A stretch of 63,855 bases of DNA, filler included, from Sanchytrium tribonematis (GCA_018985235.1; 16 parts of 16 records of this genome joined end to end with filler, not necessarily neighbours in it), one strand, 5' to 3'; shown: positions 10,749 to 60,571, counted from the whole stretch's first letter. Notes: generated by a model from the sequence alone, not told the origin. Translations and numbers: made by a program.

Positions 10749-11265
10749 ATGACCAATGCAATACCAAAAGCAGCACAAATACGACTACAAAAAGAATACA
10801 TGTCCATCTTAAGATTCCCAATAGACAATATATCAGTAAAGCCAGACGACCAAAATTTATTAATTTGGTATTTTGTGATTCAAGGACCCACAGATACACC
10901 TTATTTTGGAGGTGAATATTTCGGCACCATTATTTTTGAGAACAATTATCCATTCAGTCCTCCAAATTTCAAAATGTTTACTCCAAATGGAAGATTTGAT
11001 CCTGGCAAATTAATTTGTATGACAAATACGACATTTCATCGAGACATGTGGAACCCTCTGTGGACCATAGAATCAATGCTCATTGGATTAGTGTCTTATA
11101 TGACATCGTATATATGATTCATGTAGATCAGAAATAGGCGGAGTGGGCCTTGTATATACGACTGAATACCAAAAATTAGAATTAGCTAAAACTTCATGGA
11201 AGTGGAACAGAGAATTTGGGATGTTTATTGAGCATTATTCAGATCGACTGCTTATGGAACACTGA
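10749..11265 (+). CDS. UBC6: ubiquitin-conjugating enzyme E2, UBC6/UBE2J type; 2 exons (10749-11107, 11127-11265)
   Basis: RLQKEY, GPTDTPYFGGEY, YPFSPP, TPNGRF, ICMT and WNPLW. Splicing gives MTSSEIGGVG...QKLELAKTSWKWN, matching the UBC6 post-core segment. Confidence 0.85.
11108..11126 (+). other. 19-nt spliceosomal intron (UBC6)
   Basis: gtatatatgattcatgtag; removal restores the frame. Confidence 0.85.
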
Positions 11266-11342
11266 GTTATTATTAAACCTAATTATTTAAAATACTTTAT
11301 GACTTCAAGTAGCCCAATTTAGATTCGTAAAATTCTATTAAT

Positions 11343-12895
11343 TCATCGCATGGCATAAGCAATGATACCAGCAATCATACTGCCGTTACAGTAGCAGCAA
11401 TACCTCCAAAAATCTTCACAACTAATTTTGGAACTTTTTTTAATGTCCCATATTTTATATAAACGAACAATGCAGCACTGAAAGCTATAAAAAATACAAT
11501 AGAAGTGGCAAAAAGGTAAGCATACACAGGCGTACTTGGTGTTTGCGCATAGCCTAAAACGCAATTTGTGCCAAAACATTGATAACCATTGTTGCAGCAG
11601 CCATTCGCTCCACAGGTGATGGTGTTGTTTGGACAAGCTGTAGCACTAATGCAAGTGTTGTTACTACAAACAAAACCCACGCCACAGCAGCTATTTCCGC
11701 AACAGGTCGTTCCTGTTTTACAGCATTGTGAGGCGTAAGCATCGCCACAATCAAACGAGCCTGCGTTGCATTTTGAATATGGAACACAAAGACTGTTCTC
11801 GCACCCATACCCAAAATTGCAGCGATTTCCATTACAACAGGTTATGCCCGAAGAACAAGATGTACTTCCACAACAATTTGCTCCAGTGGGAATGCATTTA
11901 GAACTTTCCGTGCAATAAGTTTGACCAGCTAGGCACTGGTTTGAGGAAACAGGTGGCGTGGTTCCAGGATTCGTGGGCGCTGGAGTAGCAACGCTATATG
12001 GCGATGAATTTTCTACATCAATTTGATATACCTGTTCTGTAAGGAGTCACGATTCCAAGGCAGCCAGTTATCGGCCGTACACTTCTACCTCTTGCATTTG
12101 TGGTATGTAACAAATCGATAATTGTCTGGGTGTTTGCGATTCCGAATGAAGTCATGCCCAAGGTCCATGGCCCGGATGTGCAGCAATTGCAAAAGTGCCT
12201 GGCGTTGAATCATCTGCAGTAAACCTGGCGTTGTAATAACTCGTGACTTGTGCGTATCTCTGACCAGCAATGGAGTCATCGTGATCGTTGGGATTATAAG
12301 TCACACCGAATTTAGCGTGGAAATTAGTGGTAACAGTATAAATCAGCGTAGCCAGCATAAGTGTTCAAAATTCCTTGAGTTGTTCCATCAGCAACATCAA
12401 AATCATGTACTTTGGGTAATATTTAGAAACGGCTGTGGATGGTAAAAACTTGTTAATTTGAGTGTTTATCACTTCACTAAAATCAATAAGTTGTTGTTGG
12501 AAAGTTGCCTTTGCCAGTGTGCTCAATTGCGCCAAACTGCCAGAGTATCGTAGTCCAATAAGGTGCCCTGCCAAGACAAGCTGAGAAGCTATTCCATTAT
12601 TTGCATTGTCAATTGCAATTTGTTCTGGAATTCCTAAATAAAAGAACATGGAATTTGAGACATCACTACGTGTTGGTTCTTTAATGGTATTGGCCATTGC
12701 AAGTCCATCCATAGTCACTCCCTCGGTAAAAACAAAGGCAATTTGATTTCGTAAATTGGTTTGACATTGACTAATAATGCTCGAAGATGGTGGAATGGGT
12801 ACTGGTGCTCTTTTTGATTTTGATGATAAATCAGATTGCTGGTATATAAAGAGAATTACTAACGCAAATAACAAGCGAAAGTAGTTAACCGCCAT
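11343..12895 (-). pseudogene. NodB/polysaccharide-deacetylase-like domain + Cys-rich repeats + C-terminal TM, several frameshifts
   Basis: CQTNLRNQIAFVFTEG, GHLIGL, YPKYM and IIDLL...GCLG..PY segments, then CC-rich repeats and TM. Needs frameshifts near 12400-12330, 12155 and 11380, plus one 19-nt intron. Confidence 0.65.
12013..12031 (-). other. 19-nt spliceosomal intron (deacetylase-like gene)
   Basis: gtatatcaaattgatgtag; joins PYRT to ENSSPYSVATPAP... and keeps the frame through the Cys-rich repeats. Confidence 0.8.
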
Positions 12896-13761
12896 AAGTT
12901 TCAGGCTGTCAGCCAATCTGTGTAAGCAAATTGCATAAGTGGAAAAACATATTCAAATTCCGCACCACTTTCATTTTTAGTTCATGTTAATTACAAATTA
13001 CGTTTTCGTATCAAGTGGCAATAATGGCTGCGGCCAAGTTTGCCTTTTAGTCAAGTAACTGTATTTCCCCTTTGACTATTTTTGGCCTCATATCACAAGG
13101 CTATACTAAGCTCGAATTCAAAAAGAGATTGTTCCTGAAACCAAATTAAATTATTTATTATTCAGAAATATTTCAATAATTCCGCTTCATCTGCCTCGAG
13201 ATCTTTTTCTGCCCAAACATCTCAGAGTGAAAATCAAGGATGACAGAATATCATATAAGTCTTGCATCTTGAAAAGCAATACCATTTTAAAATCACCACT
13301 TCACAGCAAAGCAATTTCAATGTTGATGATAGTTTGTGATTGCGATCCTCGTCATCTTTTCAGACTTTAACAATTGCTCCGGTCTTCCTCTTGTTTTATT
13401 TAGTTAGTTCCCAAATGGCTTTCTATGACTTCTTCTTTAGCAGTTGCCTAATTGTGAAATTTCATGTTCTCTTTACGCTTAGTTTTCCAGTTACTCTTTT
13501 GATATCTTGAATTTTCGTCTTGTATCTTTGTATTTCCCTTTACATTTTCGATTGTAATTCTGGACTCTAACGGTGATCTTCTGACTCGCGACTATTGTGG
13601 AGGTCATCTGCTGATCGTGCCATTTCTCCTTTCAACAGCTAATTTCATTACGTATTATTATAGTGTCCCTCTGAATTACAAAATGAGTGATGGGTTCAAA
13701 TTTAGTTCAAATTAGTTCACTGCCAAATTGGTTGATCAAAGTACAGATCATAGTCATAACT

Positions 13762-14907
13762 TTATTGATTGAAAGATGTCACCCGCAAATTATCGTAAAT
13801 TTGATCTTCATATCCATTTTGAGATCCATTAGGTACATTTTGGTGATATCCGTCTTGGTGGACTGGGTTTACTGGATTACTAGGATTTGGTGTCGGTGCA
13901 TTTACAAAAGAGTCTCTGTTTGCTTCTACGTTTTGGTGTGGCGGAAAAGAATTCGGGTTGTGCCCGTATTGCTGATTTTCTACCATTGGCTGGGGATTTG
14001 AATAACCATCACTCGAACTTCCAATATAGGTTGGTTGACTATTATAGCTGTCTCTGTAATAATTATCAGCAGCAACTGAAGTATGCTGACTCGTGTAGGG
14101 GTTGTAATAAGCTGATTCTTGCGCGATGTTATTGCCTGGTTTTGACAATGTGGAGTAACTTGGCTGATTAATTAAGTTTTCAGAGCTACCTTGGTTCTTC
14201 TTCTTGTGTCTTTTAAATAAAAATCTCAAAATCAGAATACCAATTACTAAACTACCAATAATCAACAAAATAATAGCCCATACAGGAAAATCATCACCAG
14301 ATGCGCTACTACCTGGCCCACCTGCATTTAATTCCAATTGGTCGTAAGTTTTACCACACTGACTCTTAATATTATTTTTGGCATCGTCAACAATCGAAGA
14401 ACTTGGCATATTAGAACCATAGATGTCTGGTTTAGATTTCAAATAGTCATAATTTTCAATCATTTTCTGCATAGATACACGCGTACAAGCATCGCAAGCA
14501 ATCGGTCCGCTGCCTTGAGTCAAAACAGATGGATCGGCACTTTTACTTTCCAATAGCTTTAATCTTTCATTTAAACAGATTTTTGAACTATCAGTGGGAT
14601 GTGTCACACAGCCTGATTCAAAATATCTCAAAATTAAGGCTCCGTCTAGTCCTCCATTTGTCATGCAACTAGAAAATGCCTTAATTGCATTTCTACAAGA
14701 ATCTTTACAATAATTTTGGACTTCTGATTCTTGCACGCTGAATGTGCCAGCATTTTCATGCGTAGCCGTGCAACTTAACATGGCTGATTCATATTCAGAG
14801 GACAATATGCAACTAATATTTGCATACTTCACAGGAGGATTGAACATCAAGTACCCAGGAGATGTTGGTAATGACAAAAATGTATACGACCACGTAGAAA
14901 TCGTCAT
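13762..14907 (-). CDS. single-pass membrane protein with Cys-rich ectodomain and N/P/Q/Y-rich tail
   Basis: 381 aa; paired Cys pattern, TM VWAIILLIIGSLVIGILIL followed by basic stop-transfer residues. Confidence 0.7.
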   Translation of the reverse strand: MTISTWSYTFLSLPTSPGYLMFNPPVKYANISCILSSEYESAMLSCTATHENAGTFSVQESEVQNYCKDSCRNAIKAFSSCMTNGGLDGALILRYFESGCVTHPTDSSKICLNERLKLLESKSADPSVLTQGSGPIACDACTRVSMQKMIENYDYLKSKPDIYGSNMPSSSIVDDAKNNIKSQCGKTYDQLELNAGGPGSSASGDDFPVWAIILLIIGSLVIGILILRFLFKRHKKKNQGSSENLINQPSYSTLSKPGNNIAQESAYYNPYTSQHTSVAADNYYRDSYNSQPTYIGSSSDGYSNPQPMVENQQYGHNPNSFPPHQNVEANRDSFVNAPTPNPSNPVNPVHQDGYHQNVPNGSQNGYEDQIYDNLRVTSFNQ

Positions 14908-15153
14908 GGAGTCTTAAGGGGTTAGGTCTGGTGTTAAATATTCCCCTTAGGTGAAAATGGTGTTTCGAGGTTCTACAAGCTTTATTTTTAGAGGATGCTT
15001 TGAGGAAATTTGTCAAAGACTTTTGAAATCATTAAATTGTAGAAATGCGGGTCTTAGTAATCCAAAAAAGACATTGGATTTTTTGGGAGTAATTTATATG
15101 TGGCGAATGACGCCATATTTCGCCAGACTTTGGGTCAAACAATAGGAATCCGG

Positions 15154-15849
15154 ATGGATCTCGCAGCGATTTTAAATCCTGTTAACGGCAGTGGCACCAA
15201 TGCTGGTCAACAAAATCCCAAAGCTACAGAATCAACTGTTCTCATTGAAAGTGAAGAAAATGTGCCATGGTTTTTAAAACCATTAAAATTTGACAGCATT
15301 TACAACCATAGGCAAAAAAACGAAAGATCGAGCTACATTAGCCTTTATAGGAAAGCTAAGGGAATAGAGGTTGCTACGGAACAACAAGAATATTCTCCAA
15401 ATACCGACGAAAATATACATTCATCTCCTATAATGAATCTGACTAGTGTAGTAGAATCACAAAAAATGGAAGCTCAAGAATTGAAAAGCTATCGGAGAAA
15501 ATTTAAGGAAACAAAAAGGAAAAATCAAAAATTAAGGTGTGACAATTGTGAACTCAATTTTAGCACACCAAGTGGTCTCTACAGACATAAAAAGTCAGTG
15601 CATTCCAAGGGCGAAGGCTGTCCTTTTTGCCTCAAAGAAATAAAAATGACAGGCAGACCAGACAACAATAGAAAGCATCTAATGAAGTGCCCAGTCTTTA
15701 TTCAAGAAACTCAGAGATTGGATATAAAAGACAAAGACCAGGTTCTTCGTGACCATGTCAAATTAATGACTAGAGGCTTGTCTGAGAAAATACCACAGTA
15801 TGATATGCATTGGATGGGATCAGCTGGATCGCATAAAAAGGAAATGTAA
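15154..15849 (+). CDS. C2H2 zinc-finger protein
   Basis: CDNC...RHKKSVH and CPFC...RKHLMKC; N-terminal MDLAAILN. Confidence 0.75.
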   Translation: MDLAAILNPVNGSGTNAGQQNPKATESTVLIESEENVPWFLKPLKFDSIYNHRQKNERSSYISLYRKAKGIEVATEQQEYSPNTDENIHSSPIMNLTSVVESQKMEAQELKSYRRKFKETKRKNQKLRCDNCELNFSTPSGLYRHKKSVHSKGEGCPFCLKEIKMTGRPDNNRKHLMKCPVFIQETQRLDIKDKDQVLRDHVKLMTRGLSEKIPQYDMHWMGSAGSHKKEM

Positions 15850-16017
15850 AGAAAATAAACAAGTTCCAATTATTTATCAAGATACAAGCTTTTGATTCGA
15901 ACACAATATTTAGATAACTGGTATAGTAGTTGAAAATAAATATGGATGCATTTTCAGGTTTCGAATGAGAATCAAACAAGAGCAATGAATTTTACAATTT
16001 TTCTAAACACTCCCACC

Positions 16018-17661
16018 ATGCTGTATGTGAAATGTTCTGATTGTACAAATTGGGTATTAATGCACCCATCATTGAGCAGTGTCATATATGAATTTCACTG
16101 CTGCCATTGCTGCGATACCGAAAATCCAATGGAAATGGATATTTCCGATGATGATTTACTATTTTACTCCATTTTCAATATTGAATATGACGAGGGACTA
16201 CTATACTCCACTGAACCCTATCATCTCATAGATGATAATTCAAACATCGTAAGTATTCCAGATAGCGACAAAGGTTGGTTATACGGTATTTGTCAATTAA
16301 ATCCACTTCCTTTCCACGGAGTCTCTATTTCTTGGCAGCAAGTAGAGTTGTCCGTACATATCAAACCATTGTCGCTAAAAAATGGTACTTGTATGGGAGT
16401 CATAGATGACGAGACATTTGATTGTACATACAATGATTTTTTACAATATTCTCAAGAAAATGGTTTGTGTTATTTTCAAGCATTCACACACATTGATCCG
16501 CCGCAACTCACAAACAAGGAACTTAATTTACAAGTGCAATTGAATTCCTTGCATAGCTATAAAAATACTCATTATATTTACGCACCAAAAGGAACTTGGA
16601 AGGATTTTGATTCTAAATACAACCACTTATTGATCATTCAATCCGGGACACTCGTCGTAGTCAAGGATACCAACGAGGGATTTATGACATATCACATGCA
16701 ACAAAATCAATGCATTTTTATCCCTTCTGGTTACAGATATTGTTATTTAAGCACTACAGATTCTGTATTTCTAAATTACTATTTTATTCATTTTGAATAT
16801 CCCAAAAATTACCAATTAGAGGGACATTTGTATTTTGATCAATATGAAAAAGTTTTATGGCAAATTTTATTTAATGTATCGACGTATAAATCTCATTATC
16901 CTGAATGGCATATGGAAGGTGTCAAATTTGCTATTGAATATAAATGGAAGCAGCTTTACACAGATTACAAGATCATGAAAGATAATTTGTACAGAAAACC
17001 AATTAAAATTCAAAAAATTGTCAGGCCTTGTGCATTTCTACGAGATTTGGCAGCAGCATTTAATTTTGAGTGTGATTATACAGATCTGGTTGATGAGATG
17101 GATGAGATTCTGTTTAAGAAAAAGGGTGGAAATGTCATTGCAAAGAAAATTGAATATGTTGATGCGTTTGAGGAAGAATTGGAAATGGAAAGGAATCAAG
17201 ATGTAGAATCAGATGCAGAATCTGAAAATGAAGTGGATGAGGATGCACTGGACGAGCAAGCAAGTGAATATGACGAGATTCATCAAAAATCTGCAATGAT
17301 CCATTCAACAGATGACGATGAAGAATATTTTGAAGTCGACCAAAATGAAATAGAGGAGATCAAAGTAGAAAAGAAAGATAGATTTGCTGATGATGATGAA
17401 TTTATTCCCCATAAAAGCACAACTAGGAAATCTACCAAGACAAAGTCAACTACAAAAAAATCAGGAGGGCGACAAAAGAAGCCTTTAATTAATATCGACA
17501 AATTGAAAGAAATCAATAGTAGACAAGTGCGCCTGAATAATAAACCTGTCATACCCATGAAGATAGATAGTTCGATTTTGAAGAAACCCAGGATGAAAAG
17601 ACAAAGTAATGAAATATTGAAAAGTATTAATAAGAAATTTAAAAAGCTAAAACAATATTAA
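16018..17661 (+). CDS. degenerate PHD-like + JmjC (JHD1/KDM2-7-like) protein, probably catalytically inactive
   Basis: N-terminal CxxC..W..H..C..C; JmjC-like APKGTWKDFD and FIPSGYRYCYLSTTDS; acidic and basic low-complexity tail. Confidence 0.55.
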   Translation: MLYVKCSDCTNWVLMHPSLSSVIYEFHCCHCCDTENPMEMDISDDDLLFYSIFNIEYDEGLLYSTEPYHLIDDNSNIVSIPDSDKGWLYGICQLNPLPFHGVSISWQQVELSVHIKPLSLKNGTCMGVIDDETFDCTYNDFLQYSQENGLCYFQAFTHIDPPQLTNKELNLQVQLNSLHSYKNTHYIYAPKGTWKDFDSKYNHLLIIQSGTLVVVKDTNEGFMTYHMQQNQCIFIPSGYRYCYLSTTDSVFLNYYFIHFEYPKNYQLEGHLYFDQYEKVLWQILFNVSTYKSHYPEWHMEGVKFAIEYKWKQLYTDYKIMKDNLYRKPIKIQKIVRPCAFLRDLAAAFNFECDYTDLVDEMDEILFKKKGGNVIAKKIEYVDAFEEELEMERNQDVESDAESENEVDEDALDEQASEYDEIHQKSAMIHSTDDDEEYFEVDQNEIEEIKVEKKDRFADDDEFIPHKSTTRKSTKTKSTTKKSGGRQKKPLINIDKLKEINSRQVRLNNKPVIPMKIDSSILKKPRMKRQSNEILKSINKKFKKLKQY

Positions 17662-18025
17662 AGTGTTGTATTTATTGATCAGATAGCTTGCTGATTGAGA
17701 GATTTTATACATTAAATTAAAAACAATCATTTTGCGCAATAGAAAAACACAGATGCCGCGAGTTTCCATTAATTTTGTGTTGATTTGGTGAAAAAGAATA
17801 ATTTATATGATATTATAACAGTAAAATTTTGTTCAGATTACGCGCATGGATTGAAATCGACATAATTATTTTGCCAAAATTATATATTGATATTGACAAT
17901 GGTAAAACATCTAGCGGGATTTACTAACTCGAAAAAATTGAATAATTGAATTATCTATACATTACCTCAATGTAAATTGTTTGCAAAATTAAATTTGTAA
18001 ATTTGAACGGAGTAGTGTGGAAAAT

Positions 18026-19558
18026 ATGGATTTTCAAAAAGTATTTGCATTCTCTAATGATTTAAGTGCTTTCCTTAATGGCCAATTAAAATCTACAGAT
18101 ATTCCCACTGTGTTAGCATTTAAGTTATTTGACATCAATATTCTGTTTCCAACGCTACTTAAAGACCAAATCAAATTACAACCCAGTAGCAAACAAAATG
18201 TATTTACCGCTACTTATTTCAATTTACATAACGTTGAATGTCACTTTGATTGTTTGCTGAAAGTTGAGGCCGCATTTTTGAGAGATAAAGATCGAATTAA
18301 AGCATTAATTGCCCTTTGCAGTGACTTCCAAACGGTGAAGCAACTTATTGAAAATGTGAACAGTTTCAATATTTGGCTGCTCATTTGCAAAATATTTGCT
18401 GAAGAAATCTCCAGTGATTTCAATGCAATTTCTTTATTTCCAAAATGCATGCCAATGTCTAATGTGAAAATATAGATGAAAATTGACCATTGGGTATTAA
18501 TTCATGAATCTAATTCAGAATTGTTTCTTCAATTTGAGAATTTTAAATCTTATAATAATCTAGAGAGTGTCATTTTAATTAGAAATAGAAACAAACACGC
18601 AGTAATTGATATTGTGAAACCTGAATATTTGACTCATTTAATTTCCTTTTTAAAAAAAGAAGAATCAAAATTTGAAATTTGTAAAAGAGTCAGTGAAATT
18701 GCAATTGGGGAACTCTTTGATTCGAAACCCTCATACGCGATAAATTGCTTGACTTTCAACGAATTTATTAATAATTCCCAAATACTTCCAAGTGTTCTTG
18801 TGCTTAATATACACCAGTTTCTTAGCAAACTAAATTGGCATACTTTGGAAAAACTCACTTGTGATTCTATCCACGCTAATGAGAGAGATCATTTATTTAA
18901 ATTTTCTAATAGCAAATTTTCAGATCTGATGAAGGTATCCTATGTATCCGAATGGATAGCTGAATTTGCTTTAATCAGAATTGAACATGATTTACACTCC
19001 AAATTAGCTGATATTGATTATATATTCTTTCGCTACAAATTTGGGGTTTTAAGACTAGTAACCACTTTTAATCAAGTCATCTTCAACTACAAATTAGTCC
19101 AATGCATTGCCAAAAGGAGACAATATATACAATTCGCAGATCTTTGTTTATGGAAATGTCTTAATTTGAATGAAGTTTACGATATTGTCAATTTTATTAA
19201 AGTAGAAATGGCTGAGGATCCTTTAGAGCTATTAGCTATTCAATATTTAATTAATGTATTCAAAAAACAGCCTATAGATTTAAATTTGGCTTGTATAATG
19301 CAATATGATTTTTTGCAACCACATCTATTGAATGAAACTCCTGATGTGTTGACCAACAAAGCTACAGGTCGAATAGCCATAAATGGATTACTTGGCAGCT
19401 TAGACTGGACTATTTGCAGCGTGCAATTGTGTTGGTATTTGCATTTAATTACTATACATGATTTGGAACTAATGAATGATTGTGAGATTGAACATCTTGT
19501 AGATCAAAATGCGATTATTGCTCTATTTTATGCAAGATTTATAGAAAGGAATGTCTAA
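18026..19558 (+). CDS. hypothetical helical protein; two in-frame ORFs separated by one TAG at 18473-18475
   Basis: ORFs 18017-18475 and 18476-19558 abut in the same frame. Gene structure unresolved. Confidence 0.45.
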
Positions 19559-20752: not shown

Positions 20753-22954
20753 GTCGTGGTATTTAATATAATTGTTTGTGATGTTTGTACAAAAAATCGA
20801 CGTGTAATGACTAAATATACATGTATTACCTGTTTTTGATTCACTATTTGTCATACTAGTGCCAATCTCAAGTGGCTGTCGCACTGGATTCAAGTAGAAT
20901 TTGTTACACATGGTTAAATTTCCTGCTCCAAAATCATTTAAAAGCGCATTAAATGATAAATCACACTTTGAGAGTGTCAAATCACTTGATTTATTGATAG
21001 ACACTCTTGAGATTTGATTGTATGGTACTAAAACGGTAGTCGGCTTGAACAAATTCAAAGATCCAGTTAAAAATATAGTTTCAAATGACCAATCTTGTCG
21101 CAAAAGAGATAAAACTGTCAATGTAGGTGGAAATATAGGCAAATCACCACTTAAATAGCAGTTATCTATTGTGATTTGAGTCATATTCACTGGAATATCT
21201 GGAAATTTGCCATATATATTATGGCTCGAATCAATTTTCAATGTTTTAAAAGAAGGAGGTAATCCCATTGAGCCAAAAGTTCCATTGAAATTGTATCTCA
21301 CTGGTCTATAGTTAATATATGGAAATGAAATATCAATGACGTGTCCAGATTGACAAGTAGCAAATCCAGAATTGCAACAATTTTTGCTAATTTTTTCAAA
21401 CAACTCCGGTGCAATCACATTTACATTCATGGCTTTTGCGAAATCAATCACATAATCACAATCAGATGGTGTATTGGATGGCAATTGGATTAATTGGGCA
21501 GAAGTACATCCATTAATATTTACCAATGATGTTGCATCGAAATAATTCATTGATAAATCACAACTAGGGATGTTGATGATGCTAGCCTCTCTTACAATAG
21601 ACGTGAAGTAATTGTTACTCACTAGTAAACCCTCCAAATTTAAGCCTGTAATATTTAAAGACCCTTCAAATAAATTATTCCCCATTTCAACACGAATCAA
21701 ATTTGGATATTTTGACAAATCAACAGTCCCATTGAATCTATTATAGTCAATGTATAATTCAATCAGAGTAACCGGAATGTCAAATAATGAACCAGCAATG
21801 TTATTTTGATAAAAATACAAATATTTCAAATTAGTCGTGTTAAAACGACCCTCTATCTTGCTTATCAGGTTGTTGAATATCTCAAAATTCGTAGTTTCTG
21901 ATGGAATCAATGAAATATCCAACGTACCGTATACATTGAGATTGACCAAACTCATTTCTGGTGACTCTGCCATTTTTGCATTTAAAATATGGGAAACACA
22001 GCAATTCGTTTTTAATAAATTGTATCTATCTGGAGAAGTACTTGACATGTGTAATTTATCAACCATTTGAATCACATTTGCACAATCTTGAGGTGCTTTT
22101 TCAATAAATCCTGCTTGTGCGCTACAGACACTGGTCAAATTAGCACTCGCTGATGTATCCAATTGCGGATTTGCAAAAATATAGCACTGAGTAGGTAGAC
22201 ACGCATACAACTGAGTAAAATTGTTGAAACCTATATAAATGGAGTTCATTGGATATTTCAAAGTCAAAATACCTTCAAAACTGTTTCTATTCAATTCAAT
22301 AGACTTTACACTAGGTGGTAATTCTGGAAATATACTTGAGAAATGACAATCAATAATTATAACAGAAGTCAAACTGAGTGGCCAATCAGATAATTTCGTG
22401 TTTTGACCATTAAAAATGACATTTTTCAAGAACAAGGTGCGTAGATTCATTGGTAATATGAGTGTATTCAGTAGCTGGGATGATTCAATAGATAAATCTG
22501 TCAACGAATCTGGCCAAATCATGTCTTGAATGAATTTTGTATTCCCCAAATACACATAATTCAATCTTTGAGGCATTTGAGTCACATCTAATGTGATATA
22601 AGATGTTTTCAAATCCAAATATGTCATGTTAAATGGCAATTCATTAATCTTTCCCCCATAAAACTCACTTGTCTCTAAAATTTGAAGATTTGATGGTAGT
22701 TCAAAGATGGTCGTATCTGGCTCTTTAATGGATTGATAACCAGCGCTCTGCATTGTAAATCCATTTACACTGGTCCATCGTATCTCTATAACGCGTTCAT
22801 TCAAACAAATAACTCCAGAAGATAAACAACAATCTGATTCTATTTTTGAGTAAAGGGTGGGATATTTTTGTTTAAAGTGTAATTGATCTGCTAGTTTAAT
22901 GACTACTGCGCAGTCTATTGAAATGGACACGACAAGAAGCAACGCGTATAACAT
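20753..22954 (-). CDS. LRR receptor-like protein with three cap+LRR modules (3' partial)
   Basis: Signal peptide; three DC..(V/I)I...(D/N)CC caps each followed by LP..L..L LRRs and a C.(L/I)..N cap; 19-nt intron in the stalk. Confidence 0.85.
20811..20829 (-). other. probable 19-nt intron (LRR stalk)
   Basis: gtaatacatgtatatttag; spliced product reads ESKT-VITRR, similar to the spliced junction of the paralog at 59484-59502. Confidence 0.6.
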
Positions 22955-26545: not shown

Positions 26546-27924
26546 CGCTTTGAATAATGATATATTAAGTAAGCGAGATTTTGGACTCAATTCTTCCTTT
26601 TTATTTGAGCCAATAACAAATGATACAAAAGTGATAGAAGAGATAAAAAAGCTACTTCCTCTTCAAAGGCTCATAATATTAGGCGTTTTGTATTTTGGAA
26701 AAGTTAATTTAAACTACGTAATAGATTTAGAAATAAAAGTGAGTGAAGAAAAGTTTACGATGAAAAATGAAAAGCGAAATTATGAGTCTAAAAATCTAAA
26801 CTCTGCAGTAGCTTTCGAAAACCTAAATTTAATACAAAACCTGTATATGATTCAAAATGATAAAATTGGACCTGGTAATGGTAGTCAATTTTGCGAACTA
26901 CTACTTAAAGTTTTTAACAATCAATTCATTAATATTGCTCAACAAAATGAAGATGAAGTAACCATATCTTTGTTGCAAAATTACTTACGTCATATTGGAA
27001 ATATCCTTGATACTAAATATGATACGGAATATGAGACCAAAAAATCGGACCCAAAAGATTTAAACCGAATCTTTAAAGATAGCTTGGCTAGATGGAAGGT
27101 CGCCTTATTGAGCTTTATGGATTTACTTGGCATGATATTTGGACTCAATTTATCAAAAGAACTTTTAACAAAACTTTGGAAAACCTGCTTACATTCTTTT
27201 CACAAATATCTTCAGGCTGAAGTAAAACTCCCAGATAAGTACAAAGATCAACTGGAATTACAAGTGGCAGATGAGTATATTGATTGCGTCTATATTGAAA
27301 AATTCTCCGGGTACATTCAGCAACTTATAAAAGCAGACAAAATCGACAGCGCGTTGGTAGGAGATTTAGTGAAAGGACTTGATAAGATACTTGAACTGAG
27401 AGATGCGTCGAAAGACATTGGCAACGATAAAGAAAGGTTTTACAAATCCTTTGGGCTAAAATACAACAACGGTCAACTTCAATTAATGAATGACATGGTT
27501 GACCTACAGACTTTGGAAGCAATATTTAAATTTCAGGTCAGTTCGCTTTCAGATAATGAAAATGAAGACTTGCATTTTCTGCTTTTGGAGAGAGTTCTTG
27601 CAGCCACAAGAAGTTTTTATTTAGAATTGAATGAAAATAGAACAATGCCAACTAAAGAGTATTTTTTATTTATAAAGAACCTCAATTCAGTCATTAATAT
27701 TGTGCCTGCAATACCTCGGTAATCTCAAGACTTATTGGGTCAAAAAAGATAGCGATAGGAAAGATCAAATAATTTTACAACTGATGTCCAGCCTGACTGA
27801 CATTTTGCAATATCAAGAAATCACGTGTTTATCAACTAGCTATTTGAACAATGATTTAAGGGAGCTATTGTATGAATCTCTAAAAATTGGAATATTTATC
27901 ATAAAAGGAAGGAATAAAACCTAA
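26546..27924 (+). CDS. C-terminal part of a MON2-like HEAT/ARM protein (5' partial, one intron)
   Basis: Helical ORF. Spliced end (LLLERV...MPTKETSIQSLILCLQYL...DLRELLYESL) resembles the Mon2 C-terminus; family call is tentative. Confidence 0.5.
27659..27677 (+). other. 19-nt spliceosomal intron
   Basis: gtattttttatttataaag; phase-2 removal joins ORF 26550-27722 to the frame of ORF 27700-27924. Confidence 0.75.
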
Positions 27925-27959: not shown

Positions 27960-29338
27960 TTAGTCTAAATCCATATCGTCTTTGTCCTTTTTCCTTTCTT
28001 TTTCTTTGGTTGCTGGGACGGCCTGGCTGAGATTTTCACTTGTTAGAAAATCAAAATGCTGCTTATCTTTGATTGCAATAGCTATCTGACTAGGTAAAAG
28101 TATTCCGTTCTTATGGTATTTTAAAGATACGTCTATGAGTCCACTTAAGAAAAGTTTAACAGCCTAAATAAATATGTAAATACTTGAGTGAGGACGTATA
28201 ATGAACTTTCATCTAAAAGTTTATCAGTCCAACGAGTTACCGTCTGGGAAAATTCCTTAACAGCCTCAATTTGATTCGGTGACGGGGTATCTAGGGCAAC
28301 GAGGTGATTAAAATTCGGCCTGTTTACAAGAGAAAAATCCGATAGTAAATTCTTTTCCAAATCTTCCACGTTGTTGTTTTCAGAAACAAACAAATTCCTA
28401 GGAACTTCATGTGGAGACTCACTTCCACAAAATTTGCAATTTGATATACTTGGAATTTTTTCTATTCGTGGTTGCGATTGAGATTTGGTTGCTGGAGATC
28501 TAGCCTCTTCCACCAAAGAACTGTCTATTGGCGATTCTAAAAAATTAGGAACAAATTTCTCATGGCCTGGAAAATTTCTAGGAGGCTCAAACCTGGTGTC
28601 TTTATGCAAATTTAATTCGTAAAATTTTTCGTCTCCCAAAACCTCTTTACCAGTACATTGCTGATCTAGTTTTAAATGGTATGGGATATCTATAGGAGAA
28701 TTTCTACTGTCGTGGAAGAAAATCTGAATTCTGGAAATAAATTCGCCCCATCCTAGTCTTGTCACATAAAAGGGTGGACTAGTGACATCTACCACCTCAT
28801 GCGGTTTATACGAATTATGAAAGTAAAAGCGTACTTTCGCGACAAAAGTGGTAATATCGATAGCAAACTTTGTTCTCACAAAAAGCATCCATCTATAGGC
28901 GCATTTTTCGTAATTTGTTATTCTATTTTCAGGAGCTATAAATTGATTAATATTACCTATTATAACTGATCTTTTGATATAGAATGTTGGATCAGGTGGA
29001 TTAATTGTATTTAGTTTGACTTTAGGTAATTCAATCGCACCACGTTTCATTCTGCCATCTTCCGCTTGAGGAGGGGATTGCACTCGGGACTCCGGGATCG
29101 ATTGATTTGGAGAAGTGCTAACAGCATAATTAAGATTTTTTAAATCTGTATCCTCAGGAATTTCATGGTAATCTAAAATACTTCCGCATTCCATAATAGC
29201 GTCCTTTGGGGTTCCCAAACTAATATTATGAGAAGTTTGAGAATGGGTGATAAGAGCCTGTGGACTATTAAAATTGCTGCGAGAACAAACTTTGCAAGTC
29301 AATTTAATGTACTGTCCCATAGTGTCTTGAAATATTAC
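27960..29338 (-). CDS. YEATS2: YEATS-domain protein, YEATS2-like (5' partial, one intron)
   Basis: Zn-finger-like N-terminus; YEATS domain (RWMLFV, KVRFYFHNSYKP, TRLGWGEF); spliced exon 2 encodes LLPSQIAIAI...FDFLT histone-fold-like end. Confidence 0.8.
28164..28183 (-). other. 20-nt spliceosomal intron (YEATS2)
   Basis: gtatttacatatttatttag; removal restores the FDFLT C-terminal motif. Confidence 0.85.
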
Positions 29339-35530: not shown

Positions 35531-37700
35531 TTATTTAGCTATTCTCAATCTAGTGGAATAGTTATCAACTATGCTTTGCATGGCTGGATAATGTGATATG
35601 ATGGATAGAATATTTTTAATCTTTTCTTGATCATTTTGAGTTTCATTTATCAATTCTTCAATTGTCGCTTTGTCTGATTCAGTCGCCAAATGTTTAATAT
35701 AGTCAATTAAACACAAGTCTAGTTTAATTTGATCCGTTTGCATTAGTAGTTGTCTCTGAATTAATTTAAATTACTTCTAAATAAGCACGTGTTGCTGCTT
35801 TTCTCATATTTGATTTAGCATTTAAAATAGTAAAGATAGAATTGTCTTCTTTTATGTCATAGCAGTCATTCAAAATCTCAAACGAGGAAGCGCTAACTCT
35901 AATCCATTTTTTTATGTCTAGATCGTATCGGAATGATGCTTTATAAGTATGAACGATAAGAGCGAAAGAATTTGTTAATTCTATTCTCTGAATTTTTTCA
36001 GAGTTATTCAACAATGGAATAATATTGCACCGCAATTTTAAAACAACTTTATCGCTGATACTGTATATCTCAATTACACCTTTTTGATTTAGTATTCCAA
36101 AATGATCTTGTTTTTGGCAAAAACAAAACAAAGCGCCGTCCAAAATTATAGGTAAATAAAGTTGTCTCAGATTTTTCGAAAAAATTAATAATTCGTTTGC
36201 CTCATTTATAGCTATTAGTTTGCTCTCAATATGAGTTAAATAGATAATTGGGGCGGATTCTATAATTCGTCCAACTATGCCGTTTGTTCTCAACTCACAA
36301 TAATTTTTTTCCGGTGAATTATTAAATATTTCAAATAGGACATTTTCTAAACGAACCGATGTTTGCACCGAAATTGAACCGAGAAGTAAACGATCATCGG
36401 ACTTCAGTCGTATATCATAAATAGGCACATCTACTTTTGACAAGAGACTTGTATTTTTAGGAACAGAAGATGCAACAACTGGTTGTATTCGCTTCTTTCC
36501 ATCCTTTCCGATTGTTACTTTCTGGGTTTGTATTACCTCCACATTCGAAGCAGCATCTTGAGGTATTACTGGTGGTGTCAGTGCAGTTTTGGGAACCATT
36601 GGCAAAGGTTGATTGCGAAGTTTAAGCTCTTCTAGTGAGATCGGAGCAGACGAAACTTTAGATATACCTTTCTTCAACAAATGTACTTCTTTTTCATGTT
36701 CAGACAAAGGCCGTCCTAATTCATTTTCACTAAATTTGATCAGGAGAACGGTTCCATCATTACTGCATATCGCCACAGTCAAACCATCAGTATGCCAGCT
36801 AATATCCAAGATTGTGTCATCAAATAAAGTTTCGCGAATAACAAGTAATGGCTGATAAGAACATGACATCCAAAACGAAATAACACTATCATGAGAGACG
36901 GTTGCTATTATACTACAAATGGAGTCACCTAGACTCTCTCGATTATATAGTTTTGGCGAAAATGCAGCACAAATGACATTTTCATTGTGTCCAACCAATG
37001 CAGTTTCTTCCATATCTCTGTCAATTAATAAACAGATTGGAGACTTAGAGCTAAGACAATTTGGTGCAGCTAGTAGTTGACCATCAGGGGAGTATGATAA
37101 TTTAAATTTAAGTGACTCGAAATTCCGATCGATCTGTTTCTTAAAAGATTGGACTAACTGCGGAGATTTCACTTGCGTTATATCATATATTTCTAATTCC
37201 TTTGTGGTCAACAAGGTTAAAAATTGCTTTAATGGATCAAAACTTAGACATTTAATTGGATATTCAACATGAATGACAGAAATTTGTATTGGAGACTTTT
37301 CTAGTTTATAAATAATACAATCTCCAGTGATACTGCAAGTTGCAATCATAGATTTGTCACTGCTTACTGCTATATCTAGTATTTCAAAACCAGTTGATAT
37401 AGAACCAGAAACTTGAAAATTAAACCATTGTGCCAAAGTCCCGTCCGAACTACAAGAAATCATTGAATCCTTATCTATAAATCTAACGCAGTTTACACCT
37501 GACTGATGATAGTTCAGAACTTTGGGCGATTGAATCTGATTTGATACAAGATTTTCTAAATCCCAAATTTTAATGAAAGTATCTTCAGAGGCGGTGGCAA
37601 CAAAGTTCTCTAAAAGATCGATAGATGATATAGGCATTCTATTGCCCTGCTGAAATATGGTATCCATAACATGAGATATGTCAGGTTTCAACAATCGCAT
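35531..37700 (-). CDS. HIRA: histone chaperone HIRA/Hir1; 2 exons
   Basis: WD40 repeats, B-domain KDGKKRIQP, and spliced C-terminus AYLERQL...YIKHLATE...IEEL. Confidence 0.9.
35756..35774 (-). other. 19-nt spliceosomal intron (HIRA)
   Basis: gtaatttaaattaattcag; phase-0 removal joins to the frame of ORF 35531-35743. Confidence 0.88.
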
Positions 37701-51110: not shown

Positions 51111-51600
51111 TCACTTACACCAATTTCTGGCTCCATTATTGTTAATTACTGTTGTGGGTGGTGTATCTCGTAATTTACCACTGTTTGAACGATAGGTGCT
51201 ATTGCCAATCAAAGCAATTGCCAATGCATTTCTCAAATCTTTGCCATTTATAGAATTACCCATTAACAACTTGAAAATGACTTGAAAATTACTCAAAATC
51301 ATGTTTAAATAGAATAGAAATACAGGGATCCACCACTTCTTATGTCTCATGGAGTAATTGCTTATTTTCAATTCAGCAACATTAACACCACCCATTTGAG
51401 ACGAATAGAAAATTGATGCTGGTGGATTGGGCATCACTTCGTGACCCTGTAAAACGGATATACCCATCTGTGTTGCTTGTCTATAACTATATCTCTTGCT
51501 CACATTTAATAAATTATTGTTCATCAACTCATAAATGTTTGTTAGAAAAATCTCTGTTGTCCGATCATTGTATTTAATTACTGCTTCGCGATCATTTAGC
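51111..51600 (-). mobile_element. decayed piggyBac-like transposase C-terminal part
   Basis: YSSQMGGVNVAE...YSMRHKKWWIPVF matches the piggyBac YN..MGGVD..D.....Y.....KW motif with the Asp residues lost; upstream KYND....FLTN segment. Confidence 0.65.
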
Positions 51601-52489
51601 CGTACTGTTGATGCAAATAAATGTTTGTGCTGGTCCTTGTTTACGTATTATGGGGTATTATTACATCCCACCAGTTGCTTTAGGGACTATCAAATTCAGC
51701 AAAAGTACAAGCCTTACCTAAAAAACCAGAGAGGACACTCTATTTAATAAATTCATTTTGCAAATCTCGAGACAGTTGATCAAAACTGTTTCACCCTAGA
51801 TAAAAATCTACAGAAAAAAAAATTTCGGCACGAAGGAAATATTATTCAAAGACGAATTTAAGATATTTGGGCCCAAAAATAGAATGTAAATTTTTGAATG
51901 AACCAAATGAATTCCATCACTCATAAGGACCGAATGAATTGAGAGGCTTTTTTTATTCAATATTCCGTATTTGAATCATTATCAAATAATCAAATCTTGT
52001 ATATTCAATGTTCACTAATCGGCATGAAAGAAGATAACGTCAATTACATGTTTTTACTCGGAAACTTGGTATTATTTTACATTTTCTGGCCCATGCAAAT
52101 AGTATCAGTGAGATGAAGATGCATTTTGGCGCATGTGGAGTGACAATTTGTTCTTCAATTTAAATTTTTCAGAATTATTATAACACGCATTTTTTGGTAA
52201 TATGTCTATAAGTATCTATGATGTTGCTATTTGGAACGCCGAAAACATCAGATTTATAACCGCTGTGGTATTAATGGCTTTTGTTTTATCGAATCACCGA
52301 GTTTAAATGGAAATATTAGTTCTATAACTGAAGAGAAGCATTCATTTATTGTTTCAACGTGTTCTCCGTGCAGATGTCATCTTACGCCANNNNNNNNNNN
52401 NNNNNNNNNNNNNNNNNNNNNNNNNNNNNNNNNTTAATTAATTAANNNNNNNNNNNNNNNNNNNNNNNNNNNNNNNNNNNNNNNNNNNN

Positions 52490-53208
52490 TCCGCATTGTC
52501 ACAAAAAAGTGCAACTGCTCAAGTGCGAGCTCACCCATGCCTCTAAAATCTGTACTAGGATCTTGCCCTTGAAAACCTATGTTATATAAATGTACCTAAG
52601 AATAGCCACTGATTGGTTTTACGGTTGGTAAGCGTTTCTGGACTAAGGGCTTCCCATATCTCCATAAGTTTTATTTCGTGATGTTTGTTATCTTTGTTGT
52701 ATTTAGTATTCACCATCGCATCAATAACAAATAGTGTCTGGTTGATTTTATGCATTATAAAGAGAGTGTGGTAAAGAATTAGAGCATGGGGACTATTAAT
52801 TGCACCCTTGCCGGGAAGTTTCTTCTTAAACGCTATTGCCTGAGATAATTCTAGTATAGAGCATTCAGCAGATTCAAGGTAGCTACGCTCCAAATGCAAT
52901 TCCTTGCTATAAAATAAGCTGTGGTCGATTTTAATCATAGTTGAAATAGTAGGAATCAAATCTGGTGATTTATAATCCTTTTCTTTCTGAAGTTGTTTCT
53001 CGATGATGCGGAGTAATGCACTTGTCATTGTTGATATATTGTAAAGCATCTTGAAACTTTTATAAATTCTAACCATAATATCTGATTGCCAATACTTGGA
53101 AATTAAAACTGCCTTGACCTGGGTAGGTAGTATATGATAAATCTTTAATATAAATAAACACTGCGTGTAAATTATGGCAATGTATATGTTTGCAATCAGT
53201 CTAAACAT
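52490..53208 (-). CDS. ELMO-domain protein (ELMOD-like; 3' partial, one intron)
   Basis: HEIKLMEIW...QWLFLG|FQGQDPSTDFRGMGELAL after splicing. Confidence 0.9.
52577..52595 (-). other. 19-nt spliceosomal intron (ELMOD)
   Basis: gtacatttatataacatag; restores GFQGxDPxTDFRG. Confidence 0.95.
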
Positions 53209-57015: not shown

Positions 57016-57021
57016 TAAATT

Positions 57022-57552: not shown

Positions 57553-57688
57553 GCAATATTGAAGATGGCAAGTATTTATGTCATAAAATGACGCCATATG
57601 ATGTGGTATGTTGCAATTGAAATGCTCATGGGACCCATTTACAAGTCACGACTCATTATTGCATTTCACAAAGTCAAATTCACTACAT

Positions 57689-58130: not shown

Positions 58131-58230
58131 NNNNNNNNNNNNNNNNNNNNNNNNNNNNNNNNNNNNNNNNNNNNTTAATTAATTAANNNNNNNNNNNNNN
58201 NNNNNNNNNNNNNNNNNNNNNNNNNNNNNN

Positions 58231-58803
58231 GAGGCATTGTAAAATGAGATGTTTGGCTTGAAATAGTTGATGATATTTGCTTGTCTCTACTTTTAGTAGT
58301 TTGATATTGAGTTGATAATGAGGTTTGTAAGCTGCTTGTTGTCAACAATTGCTTAATATTTCTTGTTTTGATTAATGGAAAATCATTTGCAAAACTAGAT
58401 GAAACAAGAGGCAAACCGATCAAATTTTCAGTCGAAGAAAAACTCGAATCAGTATTTGGTAATGAATAGAGATTGTTTTGCAAGCAAATGAGTGGGGATG
58501 GTAAATTGGAAGCACCCGCCAATGGATTCTGATCAATACTGCACCTACTTGTCATAATGGCAGAATAATCAATAATATTCAAACCTGTGAATTATTGTTA
58601 TTGATAAACAAAACTTGAGGCTTAAACGCACTAAATTTGCCAGTAAATTGATTCTGAGTCAAATAAATGGATGTTGCGGAGTCTGGCATGATGGGCAAGA
58701 CCCCAGAGAACATGTTATAGTTGACACTGAATTGCTTGAGTAAAGGTGGAAAAGTAGCAATTGATCCAGATAATAAATTGAATCCCAAATACACAATTTG
58801 CAC
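58231..58803 (-). pseudogene. 5'-truncated, frameshifted LRR receptor-like paralog of 59266-60571
   Basis: 1-nt deletion in NNN[x]FTGLNIIDYS near 58590; shares RCSIDQNPL; no N-terminus. Confidence 0.75.
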
Positions 58804-59265
58804 AGATTTTTTATTTATTTATTTAGAGGATGAAACTCTTGAAATGATAGACAATTAAGTCTGGTTTGCCGTTCGCTGATACATTAGTTCGTCATGTAGA
58901 ACATCTAGATAAGTAACAATGTCATTGTAATCCGGTTGAATAAGCATTGAATTTACCCTAAAATTATCCAAGTAATGAGAGCAACATTGGCAGAGGGGTA
59001 TTACTTCAATTTATTTCAGCCCTTTTTTATTTATTGGACCATCAATTGAATATTCTAATTTTCAATCCAATCAAATGATTTTAATGAAAGCCATCAAAAT
59101 TTAGCAAAAACGACGCGAATTGTTACTTAATTTATTGATCAATAGACCCCAATAATTTGGTCTTTTTTCCTTTATTTCTACTAAATGGTGATTTTGTAAA
59201 GATATAAACCACAATTCCAAGATCCAATATAATAATAATAATAATATAATTTATTCTTTGATGGT

Positions 59266-60571
59266 TTATTTGTCAAAACAATGCCCACCAAGATCCAATG
59301 CGACTTTAATCATCAAAGATAATGTTAAATTGATGGAATATTGAGGCATTTGGAAATGTGTTACCAAATGGTTGATTTTGGATGAATTCATAGGTTTGCT
59401 ACTATCCATAATATGAGACTGGATATAAAACGAGGTTTGGGAGAGTCGGGTAAATGTCAAAATTTGTAGATTTCGAGTGACAACTAGATTAATTCGAAAT
59501 ACTTGATTTCTGTGCATCAGTTTCTAGTGCCGTTGTACTTGATTGTGCCAATTTGTTGCTTGATATTTCATAACTCGTTGTTTCTTGCATCGTGAAACTG
59601 GATGAAACAAATGGTAAATTAGTCGATTTCTCAAATGTGCTAAAATATGTAGATTGCAAAGTACTCACACCCAAACTTGTGGTCAATATAGTAGATGTTT
59701 GTACTGCAATTGAATATGTGGTCGAACTAGCAAGTGAGTAAATGCTGTTTTGTGCACAAATACTTGAAGATGGCAAATTGAATGATCCTTTTAAAGGATT
59801 CTGATCAATGCTACATCTACCTTGTAATAATGCAGAATAATCTGTAATATTTAATGCTGTGAATCTGTTGTTGTTGATATACATTGTAATAGGCTTATTT
59901 GCACTAAATGTCCCAGTAAATTGATTTAAAGAGATGTAGATGGTAGTTAGTGTATTTGGCATAATTGGCAAATCACCAAAAAATAAATTGTTGTTGAGAC
60001 TCAATTGAGTGAGAAATGGTGGCAAATTTGTGATTAATCCAGATAATAAATTGGATCCACAATATAATACCACAAATGATGGTGGTAAATTAGGAATATT
60101 ACCAGTAAATTGATTCTGTTCTGCATATATTCGAGTCATTTGATTTGGGATGGTTGTAGGGAGAGGACCTTTAAAATCATTGCCAGTTATATCCAAAACA
60201 CGTAATTGTGGTGAAATGATCCAATTTTCTAAAGACCCACTCAAATGATTGTAAGTGAGAGTCAATGTTCTAAATATATTTGGAAATGACACCAAAATAG
60301 AGCCATTTACAAAATTGTTTGAAATATCCAATCCGGTGAAAGATGTCAAACTCGCTAGATTACCATTCAAACTGCCATTCAAATTGAGATTTGGCCAACT
60401 GATTTGAACCACTCTATTGGTGATGCAACTAATCCCAATTGTAGAACAACAATCCACATTTAATTGATTCCAAATGGTTTTGTTGACAAGGTGTAAATTC
60501 AGATTCTGAGCAAATGGAATGACACTTGAACAGTCTACGGATACGCCATATAGTGTTGCTATCCATAACAT
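59266..60571 (-). CDS. LRR receptor-like protein with one module; 19-nt intron in stalk; TM end possibly frameshifted
   Basis: Signal peptide, cap, LRRs and S/T stalk. Splicing links to the frame of ORF 59266-59517 (FQMPQYSINLTLSLMIKVALD). Confidence 0.8.
59484..59502 (-). other. 19-nt spliceosomal intron (LRR stalk)
   Basis: gtatttcgaattaatctag; contains the in-frame TAA that ends ORF 59489-60571. Confidence 0.8.

What the first reader, a model, noticed from the sequence alone, without database searches (positions are those of the whole stretch)
11108..59502. Invariant A at -6: branch point apparently fused to the 3' splice site
Seen in sequence: aligned on their 3' ends, the ten introns read ttcAtgtag, ttgAtgtag, tatAtttag, tttAtaaag, tttAtttag, ttaAttcag, ttaAattag, tttAtttag, ataAcatag and ttaAtctag. 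A is at -6 in 10/10, T at -8 in 9/10, and a pyrimidine at -5 in 9/10. There is no polypyrimidine tract, and nine of ten donors start GTA. Inference: a degenerate TNAY branch site at a fixed distance from both ends, giving a lariat loop of about 14 nt, similar to the geometry described for Stentor tiny introns. The AT-rich background inflates chance matches and the sample is small.
Basis: partly seen in the sequence, partly recalled or inferred. Interest (0 to 1): 0.78.

Follow-up and report, generated by a model that had tools for sequence, protein, structure and literature searches.

The report
Nineteen-base introns in a parasitic fungus
Genes of this algae-parasitising fungus (a sanchytrid) are interrupted by introns only 19-20 bases long that all carry an adenosine six bases from their end, the likely branch point, which would make them the shortest introns I could find reported for any fungus and a new test case for how the splicing machine works at its size limit.

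Summary
Observation confirmed. The window is sanchytrid fungal DNA (orthologues 65-66% identical to Amoeboradix and Sanchytrium proteins). All ten GT-AG introns are there (nine of 19 nt, one of 20) with A at -6 in 10 of 10, against 88 of 279 decoy 19-mers. Five are pinned by protein homology alone (UBC6, HIRA, MMSDH, PRL, ELMOD); five are weaker. Back-translating the read-through tails of eight truncated relatives gave 19-nt introns in four, with A forced at -6 in three. The signal extends to ATTNAY, a decayed TACTAAC, so the A is likely the U2 branch point, giving a 14-nt loop and a 3-nt gap to AG. No RNA or lariat data exist here, and 'fused to the 3' end' cannot be told from 'counted from the 5' end', since -6 equals +14 in nine introns. 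The -6 geometry is in print (Yarrowia, Stentor); tiny introns in sanchytrids were not found in five searches. The scan noted similar ruler-like introns in Rozella and a Telonema-like protist, not in sanchytrids. Verdict: new variant of tiny spliceosomal introns; interest 0.62.

The parts
11108..11126 (+). 19-nt phase-2 intron in UBC6/UBE2J-type E2 gene; putative branch A at 11121
   Evidence: Best of 31 GT/GC-AG pairs against full-length relative P0123 (544 vs 521 next, 443 unspliced); exon 1 aligns to yeast Ubc6 4-116; S. tribonematis P0122 is truncated at the same place
12013..12031 (-). 19-nt phase-1 candidate intron in a secreted, Cys-rich, deacetylase-like gene (name recalled, no Pfam hit); putative branch A at 12018
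   Evidence: Joins a 59-codon to a 212-codon frame; leave-one-out profile rank 2 of 1911 decoys; gene has other frame breaks, so medium support
20811..20829 (-). 19-nt phase-1 candidate intron in an LRR-like surface protein gene; putative branch A at 20816
   Evidence: Weak: both frames stay open to the contig end and the codon model does not prefer the spliced frame; spliced form gives a V-I-T-R motif like that after the intron of the paralogue at 59484
27659..27677 (+). 19-nt phase-2 candidate intron (ends AAG) in a gene without Pfam hit; putative branch A at 27672
   Evidence: Extends the frame by 82 codons versus 21 unspliced; leave-one-out rank 3; other frame-restoring pairs exist
28164..28183 (-). 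20-nt phase-0 candidate intron in a YEATS-domain gene; putative branch A at 28169 (+15); the only intron that separates 3' from 5' anchoring
   Evidence: Joins 401 to 67 open codons; leave-one-out rank 1; 17-nt rival 28144-28160 also restores the frame; no homologue for exon 2
35756..35774 (-). 19-nt phase-0 intron in HIRA/HIR1; putative branch A at 35761
   Evidence: Four of four close relatives stop matching at the same codon; best of 25 pairs against an oyster HIRA C-terminus, low scores (37 vs 29); 19-nt, A at -6 in relatives P0280 and P0281
37845..37863 (-). 19-nt phase-1 intron (GTC donor) in methylmalonate-semialdehyde dehydrogenase; putative branch A at 37850
   Evidence: Exon 1 ends at residue 464 and exon 2 residue 2 aligns to 467 of PDB 8xxq_A, exactly colinear with the split Gly codon
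43933..43951 (-). 19-nt phase-2 intron in a PRL (PTP4A) phosphatase, splitting the catalytic Cys codon; putative branch A at 43938
   Evidence: Best of 48 pairs (1457 vs 1370, 1157 unspliced); exon 2 aligns from residue 105 of PRL-3; A. gromovi P0124 reads straight through
52577..52595 (-). 19-nt phase-1 intron in an ELMO/CED-12 domain gene; putative branch A at 52582
   Evidence: Exon 1 residue 65 of 68 = profile position 48, exon 2 residue 1 = position 53 of PF04727, colinear with the split codon
59484..59502 (-). 19-nt phase-1 candidate intron in an LRR surface protein gene; putative branch A at 59489
   Evidence: Retention stops after 4 codons, splicing adds 72 codons resembling the C-terminus of the paralogue at 2134; leave-one-out rank 2; LRR genes here also carry plain frameshifts, so medium support

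Best explanation
These are 19-20-base GT-AG introns of a sanchytrid fungus whose removal restores conserved proteins, and the constant A six bases from the end is likely the branch point used by an ordinary U2-type spliceosome. Shown: length, ends, restored frames in five conserved genes, the A and its ATTNAY context, and the same length and A in relatives. Inferred: U2 snRNA pairs with intron positions about 9-15 (a TACTAAC decayed by C-to-T changes that would still pair as G-U), the A at position 14 bulges and attacks G1, giving a 14-nt lariat loop and a 5-nt tail; the donor (GTAWWT, no G at +5) occupies positions 1-6, leaving only 2-3 free bases. Both arms would then sit at their floor, so the intron is recognised as one unit of fixed length and the first AG three bases after the branch A is used without a pyrimidine tract or scanning. 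A branch-to-AG distance this short would make Slu7 and Prp18 unnecessary, and both lack rows in the relative's annotation (weak).
For: Counts and nulls; U2-box pairing 3.35 vs 2.51 shuffled, P=0.008, 2.23 in 88 decoys with A at -6; -6 is the best or tied-best A in 8 of 10. Homology pins without any motif prior. A scan with no length or branch prior gave 19 nt as the commonest 3'-end candidate, 6 of 35. Relatives: 19 nt best in HIRA P0280 (90 vs 46 for the best other length) and P0281, PRL P0125 and P0126; A forced at -6 in three of these four. A. gromovi annotation has rows for U2AF35, U2AF65, BBP/SF1, SF3B1, Prp8, Dbr1, Prp16, Prp22, Yju2, Cwc25, Isy1. Same -6 position in Y. lipolytica (TACTAAC + 2 nt + AG, PMC2483917) and Stentor (10th of 15, 11th of 16 nt, PMC9505925). 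Slu7/Prp18/Prp22 not needed below 7 nt in yeast (PMC3392075).
Against: No transcript or lariat evidence. Five of ten introns are unpinned and one of them has no frame break. For the five pinned alone the post-hoc P is only 0.079. In two pinned introns another A pairs better with the canonical box (-7 in MMSDH, -10 in PRL). The U2 box used is the recalled canonical one; the organism's U2 was not seen (Rfam found only a 5S rRNA). The HIRA relatives are orthologous introns, not independent origins; the runner-up for P0280 is also 19 nt but has T at -6 (82 vs 90); P0124 is 19 or 20 nt with two of three references and a 10-nt solution wins with the third. U2AF65 and U2AF35 are retained in the relative, so loss of the tract is not matched by loss of its reader. 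C. merolae lacks Slu7/Prp18 despite long branch-AG distances (PMC10158995), so that absence is not specific.
Confidence: 0.74

Rival explanations
1. The A is the branch point but is measured from the 5' end (position +14, the smallest loop this spliceosome can close); its place at -6 is a by-product of the fixed 19-nt length, not a fusion with the 3' splice site.
For: -6 and +14 are the same base in 9 of 10 introns and in all relative introns where length is resolved. An earlier AI note reports a 5'-measured branch A in Rozella (unchecked).
Against: The 20-nt YEATS intron has A at +15/-6 and T at +14, though it is not pinned by homology; in Stentor the A moves with the 3' end, 10th of 15 and 11th of 16.
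Confidence: 0.12
2. The A belongs to an extended 3' splice-site motif read by a protein (U2AF or Prp8), as the conserved -6/-5 bases of C. elegans TTTCAG, while branching is loose or occurs at the A-rich -10/-11 positions, or the intron is cut by length alone as proposed for nucleomorph 18-21-nt introns.
For: A at -10 in 7 of 10 and -11 in 6 of 10; U2AF subunits retained in the relative; nucleomorph introns of this size have no discernible branch A (PMC6009652); C. elegans precedent for conserved -6/-5.
Against: Branching at -10/-11 would need a 9-10-nt loop, no A there is invariant, and every spliceosomal intron needs a branch nucleophile; the flanks of -6 fit U2 pairing better than shuffles.
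Confidence: 0.08
3. The pattern is selection by the first reader plus AT-rich chance: introns were chosen because they looked alike.
For: Five of ten are unpinned; a frame-restoring 20-nt GT-AG with A at -6 at 869-888 is better explained as a frameshift (1460 vs 1437), so false introns with this A do arise; post-hoc P for the pinned five is 0.079.
Confidence: 0.04
4. The insertions are not spliced: they are decayed genes or assembly errors.
For: Several LRR genes, the deacetylase-like gene and mobile-element remnants in the window carry plain frame breaks.
Against: Five conserved genes have insertions of exactly 19 nt with GT-AG ends and intact protein on both sides, including the PRL catalytic Cys; HIRA and UBC6 positions are shared with relatives at 47-66% identity; contigs of run X1 match 9763-19414 with no difference (may be the source, so not independent).
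Confidence: 0.02

Closest known systems
Yarrowia lipolytica branch-point-anchored 3' ends (Irimia and Roy 2008, PMC2483917; passages read)
   Same: Fungus; branch A at -6 (TACTAAC, 2 nt, AG); no 3' polypyrimidine tract.
   Different: Yarrowia introns are long (median 204 nt in the paper's table) with a strong ACTAAC (71%) and GTGAGT donor; here 19-20 nt, degenerate ATTNAY, no G at +5.
Heterotrich ciliate tiny introns, Stentor coeruleus (PMC9505925; passages read)
   Same: Fixed length, GTA donor, U-rich interior, weak branch consensus, predicted branch A at -6.
   Different: 15-16 nt with a 10-nt loop versus 19-20 nt with a 14-nt loop; unrelated lineage; Stentor has thousands of introns, this window about 10 among 63 main ORFs.
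Chlorarachniophyte nucleomorph introns, Bigelowiella natans (PMC6009652; passages read)
   Same: 18-21 nt, AU-rich, GT-AG, narrow length range.
   Different: No discernible branch A there; endosymbiont remnant nucleus with 3.1 introns per gene.
Mikrocytos mackini introns (PMC10245619; passages read)
   Same: Parasite with few introns of one or two lengths.
   Different: 16-17 nt, highly conserved sequence, spliceosome cut to 17-19 proteins; a rhizarian. The sanchytrid relative keeps many more factors.
Short introns of other opisthokont parasites: microsporidia, myxobolid myxozoans, Dicyema (PMC13644364; first third of the text read)
   Same: Convergent shortening below 30 nt in reduced parasites.
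   Different: Myxozoan medians are 22-27 nt; the microsporidian minimum of about 23 nt is recalled, not from a call. Sanchytrids are not among the exceptions listed in the part read.

Membership tests
Major (U2-type) spliceosomal intron | GT...AG ends | tested here: met
   10 of 10
Major (U2-type) spliceosomal intron | Removal restores the conserved reading frame exactly | tested here: met
   5 of 10 pinned by homology; the other 5 have no usable homologue
Major (U2-type) spliceosomal intron | Removed from RNA | not testable with these tools
   No RNA holder listed
Major (U2-type) spliceosomal intron | 2'-5' branch at an A paired with U2 snRNA | tested here: inconclusive
   Sequence fits the recalled canonical box; own U2 not in the window; no lariat data
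Major (U2-type) spliceosomal intron | Spliceosome genes in the genome | tested here: inconclusive
   Met in the relative A. gromovi; no whole genome held for this window
Minor (U12-type) intron | ATCCTT at +3 to +8 of the donor (motif recalled) | tested here: not met
   0 of 10 sequences printed
Branch-point-anchored 3' end (Yarrowia/Trichomonas/Giardia type) | Fixed branch-to-AG distance independent of intron length | tested here: inconclusive
   Constant -6, but length is constant too; one unpinned 20-nt intron favours 3' anchoring
Branch-point-anchored 3' end (Yarrowia/Trichomonas/Giardia type) | No 3' polypyrimidine tract | tested here: met
   Only 3 nt between the A and AG
Branch-point-anchored 3' end (Yarrowia/Trichomonas/Giardia type) | Strong ACTAAC consensus | tested here: not met
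   No C at -9 in 10 of 10, C at -5 in 1 of 10
Heterotrich tiny introns | Length 15-16 nt | tested here: not met
   19 nt in 9, 20 nt in 1
Heterotrich tiny introns | GTA donor and A at -6 in a U-rich interior | tested here: met
   9 of 10, 10 of 10, interior 51% T
Nucleomorph pygmy introns | 18-21 nt, AU-rich | tested here: met
Nucleomorph pygmy introns | No discernible branch A | tested here: not met
   Invariant A at -6

The most novel reading that the evidence does not exclude
Sanchytriomycota as a whole run a fixed-caliper spliceosome: essentially every intron is 19 nt, the shortest in Fungi, defined in one step without G+5 donor pairing and ligated without Slu7/Prp18, and new 19-nt introns are still being gained at fresh sites (three different positions in PRL genes of three sanchytrid-like genomes). 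The published sanchytrid proteomes are then systematically truncated at these introns.
Probability: 0.3. Interest if true: 0.82.

Novelty: new variant of a known kind. Interest (0 to 1): 0.62.

Why it matters
How a multi-megadalton spliceosome holds a donor and a branch helix only a few bases apart is open; known cases are ciliates, mikrocytids and nucleomorphs, far from yeast. A fungal case with a readable TACTAAC-derived branch site at a fixed place can be mapped straight onto yeast spliceosome structures and predicts which factors should be lost or trimmed. It adds an independent origin of sub-20-nt introns. Practically, the sanchytrid proteomes were made by ORF calling on genomic contigs (PMC8371127), and the database holds this window's HIRA, ELMOD, PRL, UBC6 and LRR proteins in their unspliced, truncated form, so gene-content and gene-loss claims for the phylum may need re-annotation with a minimum intron length under 19.

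Tried and rejected
No whole genome for this window and no contig look-up for relatives, so the intron set could not be enlarged with DNA. No RNA holder listed. Scans for sanchytrid DNA: metagenome contigs with the UBC6 alignment gave 1 locus of 269 stretches, L001, 38% identical, 23% GC, no sign of being a sanchytrid; viral contigs 0 of 32; prokaryote genomes 0 of 324. Rfam: no snRNA in the window, only a 5S rRNA. Rejected candidates: 869-888 (-), 20-nt GT-AG with A at -6, fits paralogues better as a frameshift; a 21-nt in-frame GT-AG near the HIRA start is coding in four of four relatives; 18459-18477 region between two same-frame ORFs has a 19-nt GT-AG that does not restore the frame (read). 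YEATS exon 2 found no homologue, so 20 versus 17 nt stays open. Three of eight truncated relatives (P0279, P0282, P0122) stop before the intron end and say nothing on length. First HIRA scoring against full-length oyster HIRA did not reach the junction and was redone on the C-terminus. The first de novo scan was cut in print and mostly joined neighbouring genes; it is not used for counts. Paper searches returned nothing. The S. tribonematis annotation table and the main supplement PDF of PMC8371127 were too large to read and may bear on splicing-factor content or mention introns.
Full report
What the window is. It is 16 pieces of a eukaryotic assembly joined by 15 N-linker spacers, 29-38% GC. 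Its intronless MND1 has four relatives at 61-66% identity, one named Amoeboradix gromovi, then a gap to 47% or less; UBC6 is 66% identical to a Sanchytrium tribonematis protein and PRL 66% to A. gromovi. It is therefore a sanchytrid (phylum Sanchytriomycota, Fungi). The species was not determined; the nearest named relative differs between genes. The genome paper describes 10.5-11.2 Mb, about 35% GC genomes whose proteins were called by TransDecoder on contigs; 'intron' occurs once in its main text, in a reference title, and 'splic' not at all (PMC8371127, passages).

The observation. All ten introns are at the coordinates listed under parts. Also T at -9 9 of 10, A at -10 7 of 10, T at +6 9 of 10, G at +5 0 of 10. 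Of 279 other GT-N15-AG 19-mers, 88 have A at -6 (19 of 51 outside long ORFs; 0.43 among the 83 AT-richest). In 200,000 interior shuffles an all-A column arose anywhere with P=2e-4 and any invariant column with P=0.017.

Are they introns? Five are fixed by homology with no motif prior. UBC6: best of 31 pairs against full-length P0123. PRL: best of 48, and the catalytic Cys codon exists only after splicing. MMSDH: exon 1 ends at residue 464 and exon 2 resumes in register at 466-467 of the human structure. ELMOD: Pfam positions 48 and 53 flank the junction in register. HIRA: four of four close relatives diverge at the same codon and the 19-nt pair is best of 25 against oyster HIRA, at low scores. 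For these five alone P=0.006 at -6 and 0.079 for any column. The other five are weaker (see observation check). The risk of false introns is real: a 20-nt GT-AG with A at -6 at 869-888 fits paralogues better as a frameshift. Leave-one-out profile ranks among 1911 decoys were 1, 1, 1, 2, 2, 3, 23, 80, 81 and 230; three of the four poor ranks are homology-pinned introns, so the consensus is loose.

An independent test. Relatives' proteins were also called without intron models and end in translated intron. I back-translated eight such tails with full degeneracy and scored every GT-AG of 10-45 nt. A 19-nt intron was best in four: HIRA P0280 (90; next 82, also 19 nt but shifted, T at -6; best other length 46), HIRA P0281 (31; other length 20), PRL P0125 (41 vs 25) and the A. 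gromovi PRL paralogue P0126 (37 vs 18). A was forced at -6 in three; in P0125 it is a free wobble base. A. gromovi PRL P0124 gave 19 or 20 nt ending at the stop with A at -6 for two of three references. Three tails stop too early to inform. HIRA introns are orthologous to ours; the PRL ones lie at other positions.

Mechanism. Shown: a 19-nt unit GTAWWT-N2-WATTWAY-N-YAG in loose consensus. Inferred: ATTNAY is TACTAAC (consensus from PMC2483917) with C-to-T changes. Scored against the recalled canonical U2 box (G-U as half), the -6 register gives 3.35 of 6 against 2.51 in shuffles that keep the A (P=0.008) and 2.23 in decoys; -6 is best or tied in 8 of 10, beaten by -7 in MMSDH and -10 in PRL. 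Branching at position 14 would give a 14-nt loop and leave three bases before AG. In yeast Slu7, Prp18 and Prp22 are not needed for step two below 7 nt (PMC3392075, passages). The A. gromovi eggNOG table (supplement file 4, cut at 4 million characters but reaching at least row 3736 of 3757-3838) has rows for U2AF35, U2AF65, BBP, SF3B1, Prp8, Dbr1, Prp16, Prp22, Yju2, Cwc25 and Isy1 and none for Slu7, Prp18 or SF3B14 by name, KOG or KEGG number. This is weak: another species, 92% BUSCO, half the proteins unannotated, proteins truncated at introns, and C. merolae lacks the pair without short distances (PMC10158995, passages). The word 'fused' is not established: -6 is +14 in nine of ten introns, and the one 20-nt intron that favours 3' anchoring has a 17-nt rival.

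Comparison. It works like Stentor introns (A 10th of 15, 11th of 16; PMC9505925, passages) and like Yarrowia 3' ends (PMC2483917, passages), but fails defining features of each: length for the first, strong ACTAAC for the second. It matches nucleomorph introns in size but those lack a discernible branch A (PMC6009652, passages). Mikrocytid introns are 16-17 nt (PMC10245619, passages); myxozoan medians 22-27 nt (PMC13644364, part 1 of 3). Searches for a report of tiny introns in sanchytrids (listings only, plus passages of PMC8371127 and PMC10459994) found none; the library lacks most subscription papers, and two supplements of the genome paper could not be read. Earlier AI notes describe ruler-like introns in Rozella and a Telonema-like protist, none in sanchytrids (unchecked).

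Verdict. Observation confirmed; branch-point reading likely but untested; the geometry itself is known, the 19-nt fungal case with a decayed yeast-type branch site appears unreported. New variant of a known kind, interest 0.62.

Noticed in passing
PRL gene 43933-43951 versus P0124, P0125, P0126: Sanchytrid-like PRL genes carry 19-nt introns at different sites: in the Cys codon here, 8 nt further on in P0125, neither in A. gromovi P0124 (which seems to have one near its end), and an upstream one in paralogue P0126. No tail printed shows read-through at our Cys site. Suggests gain or sliding of tiny introns.
   Followed up: partly
window 3862-3876 (+), LRR gene 2134-4182: Where paralogues at 59484 and 20811 have a phase-1 intron before an (I/V)xTR motif, this gene has an in-frame 15-nt stretch starting GTATTT with no AG: possibly an intron remnant turned coding, or the coding ancestor of the intron.
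   Followed up: partly
window 11378-12895 (-): Secreted gene with a deacetylase-like N-terminal part (recalled resemblance, no Pfam hit) and Cys-rich tail has a stop near 12365 and a frame change near 12160-12220 not explained by a 19-nt GT-AG; a 19-nt look-alike ending TG starts near 12410, and a 26-nt GT-AG flanked by a 10-nt direct repeat lies near 12198-12223. Contigs of run X1 have the same letters.
   Followed up: partly
window 4264-6084 (-): Intronless gene fusing a NadR-like nucleotidyltransferase/AAA_28 part with a PnuC-type NMN transporter (Pfam); looks bacterial in origin.
   Followed up: no
window 11127-11265 (+): Spliced UBC6 ends after 165 residues without the C-terminal membrane anchor seen in relative P0123 (204 aa); no second tiny intron was apparent.
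   Followed up: partly
window 850-1437, 58232-58818, 59200-59300: LRR surface-protein genes are numerous and several carry plain frameshifts or insertions, suggesting rapid birth and death of this family.
   Followed up: partly
window 9574-9692 (-): A single dispersed 5S rRNA gene between protein genes, with about five-fold higher contig depth.
   Followed up: no
window 17993-19555 (+): Two same-frame ORFs (160 and 360 codons, no Pfam hit) separated only by a TAG directly followed by ATG; a 12-nt in-frame GT-AG would join them.
   Followed up: no
window 61339-63747 (-), 51114-51647 (-): Broken retroelement (reverse transcriptase, integrase zinc finger) and a DDE transposase remnant; the latter has a 19-nt GT-AG with A at -6 at 51102-51120.
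   Followed up: no
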